This document shows positions 28,860 through 35,649 of a DNA stretch of 64,000 bases, one piece after another. The notes under the pieces were generated by a model. It did not search any database. It saw nothing but the letters and a program-made list of their open reading frames with translations, and was not told the origin of the DNA. The translations under genes were made by a program, and so were the position numbers. The stretch lies in NCBI RefSeq assembly GCF_032062105.1, contig NW_026920665.1, positions 62,001 to 126,000 of the forward strand, given 5' to 3'. How positions within the stretch are numbered: position 1 is the first letter of the stretch; each line of letters starts with the position of its first letter. This DNA comes from Saccostrea cucullata. Lineage: Eukaryota.

Positions 28860-29177
28860 CTTACGGCGACTTACATTGTGTCCCTGTTAACTAAAAATAA
28901 CCACAAATTAGGTCAATGCTCCAAATAATATTACACCATCTTAAAGCTAATGAGTATATAATTATCAAAGTTTGCATATGAATACAGGTACATTGGAACA
29001 ATTAATCTTAGAATGAAATATGTCATATCTACCGGCATATTAAAATGACTTATTAGCATGAATTCATCATGAGCAAATATGTTCATTTTTAAGTGTAACT
29101 TACTGTACCTTAATTACTTTGCCATATGCCAAAGATTTATAATTTTTTTCATCCAACAATGGTCTCTCTGTTTAAAA

Positions 29178-30192
29178 AACAAGAGGCCCATGGGCCACAT
29201 CACTCACCTGAGCACTTTGGCTAGTTCAGTTTTTATGAGTGGTATCAATGTACCATTTCCTAAAGGGAGGGAGAGTGATTTAAACAAATTTGAATCTACA
29301 CTGAGCAAGTTAATAAATCTCTTTGAAAAATCATGGCTCTAGAAGATTTGAAAAAAAATCCTATAAGTTTAATTTACCTTCTATTGTGGCCATATCCTAC
29401 TTCTGGGGTCAGGATTTCAACAAACTTGAATCTAAACTACCTGAGGGGGCTTCCATCTAAATATGACCAATCATGACTCTGCTGCTGTTAAGAATAAGAT
29501 TTTTAAAGATTTTTCCTATGTATTCCTTAATAAAATGTGATGCTTCTTTGCTTTCCGCCCCATCCTCAGGGGTCATGAATTGAACAAATTTGAATCTTCA
29601 CAACCTGAGGGTGTTTCCACATCAGTATTAGTTTCATTTTTCCTGTCCCAGTAGTTCTGAGGAGAAAAAGGATTTTCAAATGTATTTTAATGTAAAATTT
29701 GATCATCCATTGTGGTCTCACCCTACATCATGCTACATGTACGCCTTGGGGTCATGATTTGAACAGACTTGAATCTACACTACCTTACATGTAATTAGGA
29801 TGTTTCCATATAAATATGATTTATCATGGCTTTGCTGTTCTTGAGAAGAAGATTTAAAAGATTTTAAGCTATAGAGGTCATGATTTGAACAAGCTCGAAC
29901 CTACAGTACCCCAGAGGATACATAAGTTTCAATTTTCCTGGCCCAGTGGTTCTGGAGATGAAGATTTTTATAAATTTTTCCTATTAGTATGTATTCTTAT
30001 ATAAAATTGACAATTGCGGCAATGTCCTCCCCCAAAGGGTCATGATTTGAACAAACTTGAATCTACACTACCTGAGGATGTCTCCATATAAGTTTCATTT
30101 TTCCTGGTCGAGTGGTTCTTGAGAAGTAGATTTTTAAAAGATGCCATTAATTTTGCACTAATTTGTGTTTATCTCCCCTTGCAGGATGGCAT

Positions 30193-30224
<32 letters not shown>

Positions 30225-30375
30225 TATCCAAGGATGCTTTGTGAAAAGTTCGGTTCAAATTTACCCAGTGGTTCTTGAGAAGAAGTCAAAAATGTCGAAA
30301 GTTTGCTGACAGATGGATTGAAAGTCGGATAGCTAGAAAGATGTACTACATGGACAAAATGTGATTGGAAATGCA
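29178..30375 (-). mobile_element. Helentron/HINE-like element with a degenerate internal tandem array
   Basis: End reads aacaagaggcccatgggccacatcactcacctgagc. About 6 diverged copies of ggtcatgatttgaacaaacttgaatctacactacctgagg lie between 29275 and 30080. Confidence 0.8.
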
Positions 30376-30488
30376 ATTTGGCAATAAACATGTACATGTA
30401 GACTTTTTGTCTGTCTATTCTAAATCACAGAGCCAATTGTCTGAAGAAACACAGGTACTAATAAAATATTTTCCTGTGATGCAAGCTA

Positions 30489-30891
30489 TACCGTATAATC
30501 CCTATTAACCATCCCTGCCCCTATAAGCGCCCCCTTAGGTATTTTTCAATTGTCATGAAATAAGGGCTCCCTGTACAGTGATTAAAATCAACTAGAATCA
30601 TATAAAAAAAATTGAAGAATAAGTGAAAATGAAATTTGTCCATTTTCCAAATTCTCAACAGAAAATGAATAATTAAGCATAATTTGAGTGGATTATCTTA
30701 CTTTAAGTAAATTAAGTAAATAGGTTAGACATTATTTTAGTGGTTCCTTTTATCTATTTATTTTTCAAAAAAATTTTGAAGTTAAAATATGACATTAAAT
30801 ATTATAAACTAATTAAAGAGAATCCCAAAATAACCGCCCCCTTTTTGCAATTTTCTAAGTGCCCGGGGCGGTTAATACGGATTATACGGTA
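30489..30891. mobile_element. MITE with TA TSD
   Basis: TA|ccgtataatccctattaacc ... ggttaatacggattatacgg|TA. Confidence 0.8.
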
Positions 30892-32269
30892 ATTAGAACA
30901 TTATGTCACTCTACAGATTTGTCATTTCTCATATTATTATGCATCCAGAGCAAAGTTCATCAGAAGGAATTGCTTGGGAAAATTTTCTCAAGTGACTGAC
31001 TTCTTGGAAGGTCTTGGTGTTCAACAATTACTAACAACTCTATAATTCCTGATCAGATGCCAGATACAGCTGTATTGTCAGAAAACCCATGACAGATTTC
31101 TTTATCTAGGACAAGTGTTACGAGCAACTTCTTTTTTTATATATCATATGCATTCATTGCCTTCATTATATTATAGTACATCTGAGTCTAGATTCTGTCT
31201 GTCGAGCAATGAATCAGGGAAAAAGGCTCATGCATGGACAAGAATGCATACCTGAAAGAATTATCAGATATCTGGAGCCAGGAGGAATTAAAATTATTAA
31301 CAACCTGTATAATATTGAACATGCTTATGTCCTAGCTTGAATATTGTGTGAAAATTTGCTTATATATCAACAATTAATTAAAGCATTCTTTTTAATATCA
31401 AAAATATTTCTTTGTAAAAATTTTCACCCAAATTAATCATGCAAAGCCTATCTCTAAAGATATAGTGAACGTATTATTTTTTAGTATACTGTATTCTTGT
31501 ATTTTTTGGAAAGGGTAATTTTAATTAATTTGCTTTCTTTTACAAAAAGTATACTCATTTCTTAATTATATCCCTTACCTCAAATTCATGGGACCATTAG
31601 ATTAGTTTATCATACCCATAAATTGTTCACTGAGTTTATTCAACCTTCACAAAAATTTAAGAAATCTAGGCAATTTATTAATTTCAAATCAAATCAAGTT
31701 AATAATTACTTTCACTGACTTAGCTCAAACATGTACAACTAAGACTTTCTATAGTTTTTGTTTTTTTCAATTTGAATCAGTTTTGCCCTAAATAATGCAG
31801 CTAAAATATATAAAATGGAAGTTTTGAAGATAATATTACATACAAAATTACAGATACATTATTACATGCATATGTATTTACAAGTCCCAGGCCAAAGGAC
31901 TGAAAATCAAATTATTTAAATTCCTCCCCAGATAGGACGACAAGAATACAGGAAAATATATAATTAGTGAGTAGTAATAATTTTATATAGCCTCACTACA
32001 TCCTATAGTATTTTAAGAAAAATAGGTCGTATAAGTTGAGAGCACACTGTCAGTAACTACTGAAAGTATAGTGTTACTGTGTTACGAACATGCAATACAT
32101 GCATGCATGCATTTCATTATACATTAAATCTTCCATCTATAAAGTTGACAAAATGACTTAATATTATTAGAAGGTTAATTTCATTTCATCACAACCATAA
32201 AAATAATGATTACATCCACATTAAATCATTTTGATTTTAATGTGAACACCAGCAATTAACCTGTGTGCA

Positions 32270-32638
32270 TGTGGTGGTCAGTGGGGTCCGATCGCTGGTG
32301 GCCAGATAGATCAGAGTTAGAGTACCTGACCAGAGAATCAGGGGGGCCCTGGTTTGAATCTGGTCCACTGCATTTTTCTCCTTTGCTGTTACAGTTGGTG
32401 CTGTGCCATGCCCTGGAACTGACAGGTGAGGGCTGCAAGGCCTGCCAAGAATGAGTCTCCGTTGGCGTCTTTGAGGGACCATTTAAGACCTTTAAGGAGG
32501 GAGGAATGTGGCATTCAGCCGGATTTGATCACTGATGGCTAGATAGCTCAGTCAGAGGAGCACCTGACTAGAGATTCAGAGGCCTGGGTTCGAATCCGGT
32601 CTGGTACACTGCATGCATTTTTCTCCTCTCCTGTTACA
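32270..32638 (+). mobile_element. Miniature non-autonomous LTR retrotransposon (TRIM) with tRNA-like LTRs (biv-TRIM/Helenus-like)
   Basis: LTR1 32270-32393 and LTR2 32507-32638 both run TG...CA (tgtgg...ctgttaca). PBS-like tggtgctgtg starts 2 nt after LTR1. Polypurine tract aaggagggaggaa (32494-32506) abuts LTR2. LTR2 carries A box tagctcagtcag and B box ggttcgaatcc. Confidence 0.85.
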
Positions 32639-33046
32639 TGTGTAAGGTGTATGTTAAATCATGCAAGAATTTCTATCAAACTGCTAGCGATGGATCATTT
32701 CAAAGCACTTAAGTGTAATCATCCACACCTTAAGCATGTTAAGCTCAAGTTTTACTGCAAAGTTCTTGAAAGAAGTGGACACTACAGGATGGCCAATTGG
32801 CCATGGGGTTGTGGGTCATACTGTTAGTGGATCTAGGCTAGAAAAAATATTACTATATCGAGAAAAACAATTAATTCCTCTCTAATCTATGAAAAAGAAC
32901 AAACCATTATCATGATTAGGCCTACAGTATAGTTGCTTGGCAAGTTAACTTCATAAAGTTTCGTAACCATTGTCCATCGAGTCAGCTGATTCTGTCAAAA
33001 TCTGTCAAAGTTACATCATTTTACCAAATAAACACCACATAAATAC

Positions 33047-33421
33047 CTGTTGTAAACGCTCCAAATCAGTTCTTCTCTCTGCAAACTCCTAGAAATTTTT
33101 GAGAATAAAGAAAACTGTAGGATTTTGCCATCTTATTGCCTTGCCAGCTTCTTCGGTCCAAATGCGAAAATATTTAGGTCAGTGGGATAGAGTCGCAAAA
33201 GGAAAGCATTGCGTACGTGCATCGAAATTCACGATAAAGTTCAAATAAACCAATAATCACAATTGTTATCAAATTTATCGACTATTTAAAAGTTACACAA
33301 GCATGTTTATTTAGATAAAATATCAAACAATGGGTAAAAATATAGCGACAACAGTGTTTATTTCGAACCTATTTTCGGTATGTGACCTAGAATTGACACG
33401 GAAATAACGCGGGAAATTTTC
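33047..33421. promoter_or_regulatory. Putative bidirectional promoter plus non-coding first exon of the RING-H2 gene, head-to-head with UNG
   Basis: Minus-strand donor cag|gtattt at 33047/33046. The patch is CpG-enriched and has a YY1-like gccatctt at 33127-33134. The UNG ATG is at 33422. Confidence 0.55.
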
Positions 33422-35649
33422 ATGGTCTTCATTAACTTGATCAAGAGCGCAAGTAAATGCAGTGTGTTTGCGTTATTTAAACCGGTAAGCACATTAAAAA
33501 AAATGAGTGGGCAGGCGAAAATTTCGGCTTTCTTCACACAGTCTACCAAGCGGACGATCAACAATGTCAATAATGGAGAAATCGGAGAAACAGTGGTAAG
33601 GGGGGAGGGGCGGGGGTATTGACTGCCTAAATATATTGTGCAGTTCCATTTCTTGATAATATGTATAGTTTTGTAGTGCAACATTTAGGTTTCAAACAAG
33701 GCCACAAGCAGTCCAAGTCCCAAGATTTGGACAGTATTAGCTGTTGAAAATGATGTAATTTTAGCTCACCTGAGCTGTCTCTGATCAAAGAAAGTCTGTT
33801 GACAGTGTTGTTCTTCTGCATTATATTCTGCATTCTGTTGTACATCTCTTAATAAAGCTTTATTATCTTGATTTAACTATTTTATGACATCAACTGTCAG
33901 TCACTGCATGGTTACAGATGCTTTTTAAGATATGATATATAAGTATACTAGTCGATTGTCTTAATTGACAGTCTTCATGGTTTTCAACTTGAGTTGATGT
34001 TTTCCCATGAAGGTCCAGGAAAGTGAACCTACTGTCAACATGATGTAATGTATACCAATATTGTTTTATGTAGTTGATGATGCTGAATTACTATCCAATA
34101 TTTTCAATTTCTGTTTTTAGCCTAAAACACCAAGCCCAAAGAAGCTCAAAATGGATGAAAAAGGGGAAGATGTCTCATCAATGAAAGAGAATATAGAAAA
34201 CAGTCCCAACAGCAATGTACCATCAGCCCCTTTATCTCCTGAACAAAAAGACAGGATAGAACAGAACAAGTTAGCAGCCAGAGCTAGACTAGCATCCAAG
34301 ACATCTAATGGTCTACTGGTCGATGTAGGACCATCGTGGTTCAAAGCCCTGGAGAGTGAATTCTCAAAGGAGTATTTTACCAATGTGAGTATGTATCATG
34401 CAAACTTGAAAGTGCAGCAATTTCTAAAAGACTTCCATTCCAGATTGAATTTTTTTTCTGGTGTTATATCTTTCAAGAATGCATATTATGTCTTTGTTAA
34501 TGATTGTATATTCTTCAAGTACATATTTCTGGTATGTTAATAAATTGTTTATTGATTAACTTCTAAATTTTAGCTTTCAAGGTTTGTGATGTCTGAAAGA
34601 AGCAAGCATACAATATATCCCCCAGTCCATGATGTGTTTAGCTGGACCAACTACTGCAGTATTGATAAAGTAAGGCTTTCTACAGGTTCAAGAAAAAACC
34701 TCCTTGACAAAACTAAATATGACAAGACTAGAAGCATTCATGATTTAAAGATGATCTTGGATTTTACAAGCAAGATTTTGATAAGTTGATTGAGATGTAT
34801 CAAATGAATATAGTTTTTCAACTTTCATTGCACAAATGAGGTATAAAAAGTAAAATTGTCTTGTAGCATGATAAAGAATTTCCAGTTCATTTAAGAGTTT
34901 TGTGTTCACAGGTTAAATTGGTCATCCTAGGACAGGACCCTTATCATGGACCCAAACAAGCTCATGGTCAGTGCTTATTATCCCTCCCCTCACAACAAAG
35001 TTGAGGGGATATATAACTCATTTGTGAGTGCGTAACAAAAGTTATATATATAATAACAAGATTGATTTGCCCTTTTGAGAGGATGCTCCACTTTGTGGTT
35101 TCCTTCTTGGTTTCAAAGTTTTGAGACTAAAAAACAATGATCTTTAATAAAATAGCTCTCTGGAAGATTTAAACAAGCTATATATTGACAAAAACTGATA
35201 CTCCTAATTTACCATACTAAATGGATCAAAGAGCTAATGCACCGTAATACATGTACTACATTTAGTAGACTCAGAGAATTTTTCAAAGCAAGACAGACAG
35301 AATGAGAATATATGCAAAATCACTGAAAATTTATGCATATAATGATGAGATTCTTAAAATACCTGCTATTTAAGTTAATGTTAAGAATTATCTGGAATAT
35401 ATGTACCTTTAATAATATCTCTGATATTGCAGGTCTGTGTTTTAGTGTCCAAAAGGGAGTGCCACCACCACCAAGGTAATTAATGTTAATGTCATTTATC
35501 ATGCTGTGCTGATCACATACATATTGCTGCTTAAGTATCTGCAGTTTCTTATATGTACATGTAGCTTTTCAAGTTCATCTCTGCATTGTAAATTCAGGAG
35601 ATCAAAGTTTTTAGATGGATCTAACTTTAACTGACTCTGTTAGGGATTA

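What the first reader, a model, noticed from the sequence alone, without database searches (positions are those of the whole stretch)
32270..32638. 369-bp LTR retroelement whose LTRs are built around a tRNA-like Pol III gene
Directly visible: two ~125-130 bp TG...CA direct repeats, a TGG-starting primer-binding-like site, a 113-bp non-coding interior and a polypurine tract. Each LTR contains a cloverleaf-like segment; LTR2 reads ggctagaTAGCTCAGTCAG...ctga-ctagaga-ttcag...GGTTCGAATCC. This is a SINE-like promoter inside an LTR chassis, analogous to 5S-bearing Cassandra TRIMs in plants and probably related to biv-TRIM/Helenus elements. The two LTRs are clearly diverged, so the insertion is old. 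It sits in the first intron of the RING-H2 gene ~400 bp from the shared RING/UNG promoter, where TFIIIC-binding B boxes could act as a boundary (inference).
Basis: partly seen in the sequence, partly recalled or inferred. Interest (0 to 1): 0.7.

Follow-up and report, generated by a model that had tools for sequence, protein, structure and literature searches.

The report
Decayed copy of known Helenus retrotransposon
This is an old, decayed copy of a gene-less jumping element with a tRNA look-alike in each end repeat, a family already published from rock oyster (Helenus-1_SaGl); sister copies in the same genome carry footprints of the histidine-tRNA primer and hybrids with a full-size Gypsy retrotransposon, which is therefore likely the helper that moves it.

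Summary
The element is real: LTRs 32270-32393 and 32507-32638, a tRNA-His primer site, a 113-bp interior and a polypurine tract. It is a ~80%-identical, CpG-decayed copy of an abundant family. A young copy differs from the published Helenus-1_SaGl consensus (Kojima 2024) at 2 of 361 bases by eye, and 22 of 29 complete insertions have exact 4-bp target duplications. So the family is already known; the scan also noted Helenus elements in other genomes before. It is not biv-TRIM. The boundary idea is unsupported: the 5' B box is broken, survival of one B box fits neutral decay (p~0.5), and the promoter lies 520-760 bp away. New evidence came from sister copies. Twenty LTR junctions carry a 16-20-nt tRNA-His match in place of the family's 10-nt primer site. 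Three hybrids join Helenus LTRs to Gypsy interiors, two with a young His-primed Gypsy family that shares the polypurine tract at 15 of 16 bases. That family is the likely helper; I found this only inferred, not shown, in print. Pol III transcription is untested.

The parts
32270..32638 (+). Whole Helenus-1_SaGl-type TRIM copy, decayed, older subfamily states
   Evidence: 79.9% to young copy L003 over its full 361 bp; L003 matches the published consensus at 359 of 361 by eye
32266..32269 (+). Left half of the likely 4-bp target site duplication (TGCA)
   Evidence: 2 of 4 differ from the right half; common origin from a CpG-containing site is inferred
32270..32393 (+). 5' LTR, 124 bp, TG...CA
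32300..32368 (+). tRNA-like unit of the 5' LTR; A box decayed (32307), B box broken at its CpG (32351-32361)
32373..32377 (+). T5 run behind the tRNA-like unit (T4 in young copies); predicted Pol III terminator
   Evidence: function inferred
32396..32405 (+). Primer-binding site for host tRNA-His (9 of 10 here, 10 of 10 in young copies)
   Evidence: host tRNA-His genes found in this genome; PMC10886601 Fig. S2C
32394..32506 (+). Non-coding interior, 113 bp (103 in young copies, two small insertions here)
   Evidence: two hairpins predicted in the young copy (z -2.81) but not supported in this copy (z 0.22)
32491..32506 (+). Polypurine tract with T-rich lead-in, unchanged from young copies; 15 of 16 bases shared with two His-primed Gypsy families
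32507..32638 (+). 3' LTR, 132 bp, TG...CA
32537..32607 (+). tRNA-like unit of the 3' LTR; A box 32544-32555 has lost its final GG, B box 32587-32597 intact
   Evidence: Rfam tRNA 20.6 bits, E 0.27
32618..32622 (+). T5 run of the 3' LTR
32639..32642 (+). Right half of the likely target site duplication (TGTG)
33047..33162 (-). Non-coding exon 1 (covered part) of the host RING-type gene; the element lies antisense in intron 1 (28891-33046)
   Evidence: contig pieces 33047-33154 and 33053-33162, and a loose end that matches exon 2 at 28890
33402..33592 (+). Exon 1 (covered part) of the divergent uracil-DNA-glycosylase-like gene, spliced to 34120
   Evidence: joint in 4 of 4 runs; weak UDG hit on the last exon

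Best explanation
The 369-bp element is an old, decayed and likely dead copy of the published non-autonomous LTR retrotransposon family Helenus-1_SaGl, whose active members are predicted to be transcribed by RNA polymerase III from the tRNA-like unit in the 5' LTR, are likely primed by host tRNA-His, and are likely copied and inserted by the proteins of a His-primed Gypsy family of the same genome. Steps: (1, inferred) Pol III starts near LTR position 31; the T4 run behind the tRNA-like unit would give a short ~83-nt RNA or, on read-through, a ~315-nt template ending at the T4 of the 3' LTR. (2, strongly supported by sequence footprints) tRNA-His primes reverse transcription on a 10-nt match; the primer is sometimes copied into the DNA, giving 16-20-nt tRNA-identical primer sites. 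(3, supported by hybrids and shared ends) the RNA is packaged and reverse-transcribed with Gypsy RNA. (4, shown by 4-bp target duplications) an integrase inserts it. This copy then decayed in intronic DNA that is likely methylated, losing the 5' B box; a host role is unlikely.
For: Family identity: all six short motifs of a young copy occur in the Helenus data file, and the entry Helenus-1_SaGl (LTR 129, interior 103, total 361, TSD 4) matches L003 at 359 of 361 bases by eye. 22 of 29 distinct complete insertions have an exact 4-bp TSD, 4 more have one mismatch. PBS matches host tRNA-His. 20 LTR-PBS junctions carry 16-20 nt of tRNA-His complement, control pattern 0, with at least four different re-entry points into the interior; with the same left anchor the count is 15 against 62 family-type junctions. 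Hybrids: L178/L170 (Helenus-2 LTR, His PBS, ~660 bp 97% like Gypsy L179, Helenus PPT and LTRs, exact TSD), L164 (Helenus-1 LTR, His PBS, two pieces 96% like L179), L125 (Helenus-1 joined to the 3' 2.3 kb of a Lys-primed Gypsy, exact TSD). L179 and L126 have Gypsy domain order, His PBS, 4-bp TSD and the PPT at 15 of 16 bases. Decay: 15 of 20 CpGs lost, 5' B box broken.
Against: Pol III transcription was not tested; the laid runs are contigs and show neither start nor strand. The window copy is only 79.9% identical to a young copy and carries three states absent from young copies, so it belongs to an older subfamily, not the published consensus itself. Its own TSD is not exact. One of three hybrids involves a Lys-primed Gypsy with a different PPT, so hybrids do not single out one helper; they could also form by DNA recombination or cDNA capture without co-packaging, and no TSD was established for L164. 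No interior similarity beyond PBS and PPT was found between Helenus-1 and L126 or L179. The primer-copy pattern selects for matches of at least 15 nt by construction, and some of those copies may be one amplified variant.
Confidence: 0.88

Rival explanations
1. This copy has been kept as a TFIIIC-bound boundary or regulatory site for the shared RING/UNG promoter.
For: The 3' LTR keeps an intact B box. The copy is within 0.8 kb of two transcript starts. The left junction seems present in a related oyster sample whose flanks differ by 4-5% (one sample). Kojima 2024 proposes SINE-like regulatory roles in general.
Against: Chance that at least one of two B boxes survives at this copy's decay rate is about 0.48. 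The copy lost 15 of 20 CpGs, and the DNA between it and exon 1 is as CpG-poor as the rest of the intron (o/e 0.31 against 0.26; promoter 1.25). Both A boxes are damaged.
Confidence: 0.06
2. Two tRNA-derived SINE copies in tandem that mimic LTRs.
For: Each repeat is mostly a tRNA-like unit, closest among the host tRNAs retrieved to tRNA-Lys(TTT) (50 of 74 columns; only a few isotypes were retrieved).
Against: Fixed 103-bp interior with PBS and PPT, TG...CA ends, no poly-A or microsatellite tail, 4-bp TSDs in 22 of 29 complete copies, and LTR-interior-LTR-interior-LTR arrays.
Confidence: 0.01
3. The family is Helenus, but its helper is another Gypsy (for example the Lys-primed L142 family) or any of several; the hybrids with L179 reflect DNA-level recombination at the shared PBS.
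For: L125 joins Helenus-1 to the Lys-primed family with an exact TSD, and that family shares the last ten LTR bases with Helenus-1. A third His-primed Gypsy (L127) exists.
Against: Two of three hybrids use L179 and join exactly at the His PBS; L179 and L126 share the PPT at 15 of 16 bases, while L142 and L127 do not.
Confidence: 0.25
4. The LTR unit is a working tRNA gene carried by the element.
For: The young unit folds into a cloverleaf as its minimum-energy structure.
Against: 59 of 60 ARAGORN calls have a four-base anticodon; the fold is not better than shuffles (z -0.70); the window copy falls below both detectors.
Confidence: 0.02

Closest known systems
Helenus-1_SaGl (Helenus, TRIMp3), Saccostrea glomerata; Kojima 2024, Biology 13:119, PMC10886601 (read: main text parts 1-5 of 6; supplement parts 1, 6, 10 of 11 and two searches)
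   Same: LTR 129 / interior 103 / total 361 bp, 4-bp TSD, tRNA-His PBS, same PPT; young copy L003 differs at 1 of 129 LTR and 1 of 103 interior bases by eye.
   Different: The window copy is ~80% identical, with two interior insertions, a T5 run and older states shared with Crassostrea Helenus-2/2C entries. The paper infers primer and Gypsy helper from PBS similarity only; it reports no primer copies or hybrids in the parts read.
Helenus-2C_CGi and Helenus-2_CGi (Crassostrea gigas), Helenus-2_SaGl; same paper
   Same: His PBS, near-identical PPT, related tRNA-like unit and interior; the window copy keeps two of their diagnostic states (by eye).
   Different: Different U3 part of the LTR and different interior loops; separate families.
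Cassandra TRIMs of plants (as summarised in PMC10886601; original paper not read)
   Same: Pol III-type small-RNA gene inside each LTR, non-coding interior, tandem arrays.
   Different: 5S rRNA rather than tRNA; Pol III transcription validated for Cassandra, not for Helenus.
biv-TRIM of bivalves (PMC6934838, passages read)
   Same: Short non-autonomous LTR element of bivalves.
   Different: biv-TRIM has no canonical PBS; tRNA similarity is reported for its inner domain. No sequence comparison was run.
Gypsy-39_CGi (named in PMC10886601 as a His-primed Gypsy of C. gigas)
   Same: His PBS like L179 and L126.
   Different: Only its PBS is given in the supplement; whether it is the counterpart of L179 or L126 could not be tested.

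Membership tests
Helenus (TRIMp3) | Short non-coding element with two LTRs (TRIM; 311-1263 bp) | tested here: met
   369 bp, 124 + 113 + 132
Helenus (TRIMp3) | tRNA-derived sequence with A and B boxes inside each LTR | tested here: met
   Young copies: ARAGORN calls in 26 of 26 loci. Window copy: degenerate, 20.6 bits in LTR2, one B box intact
Helenus (TRIMp3) | PBS complementary to a host tRNA 3' end just behind the 5' LTR | tested here: met
   10 nt to host tRNA-His in young copies, 9 of 10 here
Helenus (TRIMp3) | PPT just before the 3' LTR | tested here: met
   32491-32506, unchanged from young copies
Helenus (animal type) | 4-bp TSD | tested here: met
   22 of 29 complete insertions exact; 1 has 5 bp. 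The window copy itself has 2 of 4 mismatches
Helenus (TRIMp3) | Transcription by RNA polymerase III | not testable with these tools
   Contig-only runs show no start, end or strand; also unvalidated in the paper
Helenus-1_SaGl | Sequence identity to the published consensus | tested here: met
   L003 359 of 361 by eye; window copy 79.9% to L003 over full length, borderline, older subfamily
biv-TRIM | No canonical PBS; conserved central segment in the inner domain | tested here: not met
   A canonical His PBS is present; the central segment quoted is not visible in the interior (by eye)
Cassandra | 5S rRNA-derived sequence in the LTR | tested here: not met
   Rfam scan to E 10 gives tRNA, no 5S
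tRNA-derived SINE (SINE2) | Single tRNA-headed unit with a 3' tail and variable long TSD | tested here: not met
   Paired LTRs, fixed interior, 4-bp TSD
LTR retrozyme | Self-cleaving ribozyme in each LTR | tested here: inconclusive
   No ribozyme family to E 10 on the decayed window copy; young copies were not scanned, but only 30 and 26 nt flank the tRNA-like unit in the LTR

The most novel reading that the evidence does not exclude
The oyster genome records the whole life cycle of a Pol III-type TRIM in its own mistakes: tRNA-His primer copies fixed in about one in five young primer sites, and integrase-inserted hybrids that name a young His-primed Gypsy family (L179/L126 clade, shared PPT and LTR tips but unrelated LTR bodies) as the helper of Helenus-1 and Helenus-2, with occasional use of a Lys-primed Gypsy. 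This would be direct genomic evidence for the autonomous partner of an animal tRNA-bearing TRIM, and would show that PBS, PPT and a few terminal bases suffice for parasitism.
Probability: 0.65. Interest if true: 0.45.

Novelty: already known. Interest (0 to 1): 0.25.

Why it matters
The element as found is ordinary: a dead copy of a family whose consensus was published in 2024. What may matter is the by-product. Kojima 2024 states that it is not known how a TRIM's dependence on its autonomous partner is maintained and that no partner is indicated for Cassandra. The primer footprints and Helenus-Gypsy hybrids give a concrete candidate helper family and a short list of shared cis-signals, which makes that question testable in oysters. 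For annotation, these LTRs are false tRNA calls (60 ARAGORN calls in 26 loci).

Tried and rejected
ARAGORN on the window: no call. Rfam on 31800-33200: nothing over cut-off; the best E-value (snoRNA GlsR6, 22.7 of 75 bits) was rejected as chance. Search with the window's interior for a close sister subfamily: best 84% among 40 scored of 485 candidates, so no near sibling was seen. Parent tRNA: tRNA-Lys(TTT) is closest among the few isotypes retrieved (His, Lys, Ala, Arg, Met, Thr); not a complete test. Covariation of the two interior hairpins: MAFFT misaligned Helenus-1 and Helenus-2 rows, so the 12-sequence consensus fold is uninformative; the window copy's interior folds no better than shuffles. 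Interior similarity of Helenus-1 to L126, L127 and L179: none beyond the PPT region. Empty-site allele: no joint that skips the whole element among the 15 joints listed (7 not shown); the right junction is covered by only 25 letters on the element side, under the tool's 31, so presence in the related sample rests on the left junction in one sample. All 19 sequencing runs had shares of 0.10 or less; they were used only for splice joints and junctions. Helenus-like contigs occur in RNA runs but cannot show strand, start or source copy. Pfam gave no hit for the UNG N-terminal exon or the 708-aa ORF at 39343-41466. Literature searches for primer copies, hybrids or a named helper of Helenus gave no such report; subscription journals and Repbase entry notes are not covered, and supplement parts 2-5, 7-9 and 11 were seen only through searches.

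Full report
Observation. The sequence at 32270-32638 is as described. LTR1 (32270-32393, 124 bp) and LTR2 (32507-32638, 132 bp) start with TG, end with CA and agree at 97 of 121 aligned columns. The 113-bp interior starts with a PBS (32396-32405) and ends with a PPT (32491-32506). The tRNA-like part of LTR2 scores 20.6 bits against Rfam tRNA, below the 29-bit cut-off; ARAGORN finds nothing in the window.

Sister copies. A search of the window's own genome gave 1167 candidates; 40 were scored and the best other copies are full length at about 80% identity. From 55 fetched loci I built 51 distinct LTR chains; 29 had two or more complete LTRs with intact outer ends, and 22 were dropped as single, truncated or running on into an array. 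Of the 29, 22 have an exact 4-bp TSD, 4 have one mismatch, 1 has 5 bp, and 2 (the window copy and L021) have none; two of the 22 lie in TA repeats and two others share flanks and may be one insertion. Young copies have 129-bp LTRs, often identical, a 103-bp interior and frequent tandem arrays. ARAGORN makes 60 calls in 26 of 26 loci, 59 with a four-base anticodon. The exact PPT-LTR junction pattern occurs 654 times, summed over several families.

Identity. [quoted passage not shown] Its data file holds Helenus-1_SaGl from Saccostrea glomerata (LTR 129, interior 103, total 361, TSD 4). By eye the young copy L003 differs from it at one LTR base and one interior base. The host is therefore likely a rock oyster. 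The window copy is 79.9% identical to L003. Both its LTRs and its interior carry three states absent from young copies; four other chains of 51 carry all three, and two of the states also appear in the Crassostrea entries Helenus-2/2C. It is an older subfamily of the same lineage. biv-TRIM is excluded because it lacks a canonical PBS (PMC6934838, passages).

Age and state of this copy. Against L003, 16 of 40 CpG positions and 34 of 312 other positions differ; 5 of 20 CpG dinucleotides survive. The flanks TGCA and TGTG would both follow from one CpG-containing target (inference). The 5' B box, which would drive the template RNA, is broken at its CpG, and both A boxes are damaged. A contig of one sample of a related oyster, whose flanks differ by 4-5%, runs from the left flank into the LTR, so the insertion likely predates that split; this rests on one sample.

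Position and the boundary idea. Contigs place exon 1 of the minus-strand gene at 33047 to at least 33162, spliced to 28890, and exon 1 of the plus-strand gene from 33402 or earlier. The element lies antisense in intron 1, 408 bp from the splice donor and about 520-760 bp from the promoter. Gene names rest on weak single-exon hits (RING-H2, E 0.001; UDG, E 0.004). Under this copy's own decay rates at least one of two B boxes survives with probability about 0.48. CpG observed/expected is 0.26 in the intron, 0.28 in the element, 0.31 between element and exon 1 and 1.25 in exon 1 and promoter: the change lies at the exon, not at the element. I give the boundary role 6%.

Primer. Host tRNA-His genes were found (18 pattern matches; ARAGORN His calls in 4 of 7 loci sent). 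The family PBS pairs with the tRNA 3' end over 10 nt. A pattern for LTR end plus extended tRNA complement found 20 junctions, control 0; they match tRNA-His for 16-20 nt and re-enter the interior at four or more different points, mostly with short deletions. With the same left anchor there are 15 such junctions and 62 of family type. Two Helenus-2 loci carry 33 and 39 nt of tRNA complement. Copying of the primer tRNA during second-strand synthesis is described for retroviruses, with PBS reversion proposed for mouse ERVs (PMC7472051, passages). The pattern selects for long matches by construction and some copies may be one amplified variant, but several re-entry points argue for repeated events.

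Helper. A His-PBS pattern gave 131 places; 30 were fetched, 10 with Helenus LTRs and 20 others in seven LTR-end classes, of which one (L091/L126) ends like Helenus-1. L126 is a Gypsy-order element with 960-bp LTRs, a 4-bp TSD and a PPT equal to Helenus-1 at 15 of 16 bases. A related young family, L179 (70-73% to L126; 1158-bp LTRs 99.8% alike; 4-bp TSD; same PPT; Gypsy domain order), has 27 further matches of 93-98% to its 5' interior. Of 10 junctions inspected, 7 have the Gypsy LTR and 3 a Helenus LTR. L178 and L170 (98% alike with flanks, likely one event) read Helenus-2 LTR, His PBS, about 660 bp of L179 interior, Helenus PPT, LTR, Helenus-2 interior, LTR, with an exact 4-bp TSD. L164 reads Helenus-1 LTR, His PBS, two L179 pieces, then an inverted Helenus-1; no TSD was established. 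L125 joins an inverted Helenus-1, a part LTR and a 17-nt tRNA-His copy to the 3' 2.3 kb of a Lys-primed Gypsy (L142 family), with an exact 4-bp TSD in AT-rich DNA. Template switching in a shared particle is the simplest reading of these three events; DNA-level recombination is not excluded, and the third shows that the partnership may be loose. Kojima names Gypsy-39_CGi from PBS similarity only. Chimeric TRIMs and template switching are reported for sugar beet (PMC13570524, passages). Six searches found no report of primer copies or hybrids for Helenus; a meeting report only cites the 2024 paper (PMC12859917, passages).

Transcription (inferred). In L003 the tRNA-like unit starts at LTR position 31 and a T4 run follows at 110-113. 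Pol III would give a short RNA of about 83 nt or, on read-through, about 315 nt ending at the 3' T4, with the tRNA-like unit as the repeated region for strand transfer. T runs at this place are visible in many published Helenus LTRs (by eye, not counted; some lack one). The paper's two uses of 'terminat' concern Cassandra. None of this was tested.

Verdict. Already known family; this copy is a decayed passenger. Interest 0.25, nearly all of it from the primer footprints and the helper evidence found in sister copies.

Noticed in passing
G000:C13277 (L178:1142-2306) and G000:C7847 (L170): Helenus-2 tandem element whose first interior is replaced by about 660 bp of the 5' interior of the His-primed Gypsy family L179, with an exact 4-bp TSD; the two loci are likely alleles of one event.
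   Followed up: yes
G000:C20932 (L164:1382-2720): Helenus-1 LTR and His PBS joined to gag-start and integrase pieces of the L179 family, inside a nest of further Helenus copies.
   Followed up: partly
G000:C4640 (L125:740-3407): Inverted Helenus-1 plus part LTR and tRNA-His copy joined to the 3' part and LTR of a Lys-primed Gypsy; both outer ends are U5 ends and the whole has a 4-bp TSD.
   Followed up: yes
G000:C23134 (L165:1300-1710): A different Helenus-like tandem unit whose interior begins with an antisense copy of nearly the whole tRNA-His (61 of 75 positions), suggesting read-through copying of the primer that was then propagated.
   Followed up: partly
G000:C6263 (L058/L094) and G000:C10545 (L064): Helenus-2 copies with 33 and 39 nt of tRNA-His complement at the PBS, beyond the usual 18-nt stop (the stop length is recalled).
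   Followed up: partly
L003:1508-1530 (U3 part of the Helenus-1 LTR): A second B-box-like hairpin lies upstream of the tRNA-like unit, one base longer than the consensus; a similar motif is visible in the published Helenus-2C_CGi LTR. Role unknown.
   Followed up: no
L023:1501-2090; L007; L053: Mixed arrays and clusters of Helenus-1 and Helenus-2 units; L023 runs from Helenus-1 into a Helenus-2 interior and LTR inside one 4-bp TSD.
   Followed up: partly
window 39343-41466 (-): 708-aa acidic, low-complexity open frame ending in a basic tail; no Pfam hit.
   Followed up: no
window 33047-33600: CpG-rich bidirectional promoter region (o/e 1.25) with at most 240 bp between the covered 5' ends of the two genes.
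   Followed up: partly
L096-L111: Repeated host tRNA clusters (Lys, Ala, Arg and an intron-bearing tRNA that ARAGORN labels Met or SeC) spaced about 3 kb apart on several contigs.
   Followed up: no
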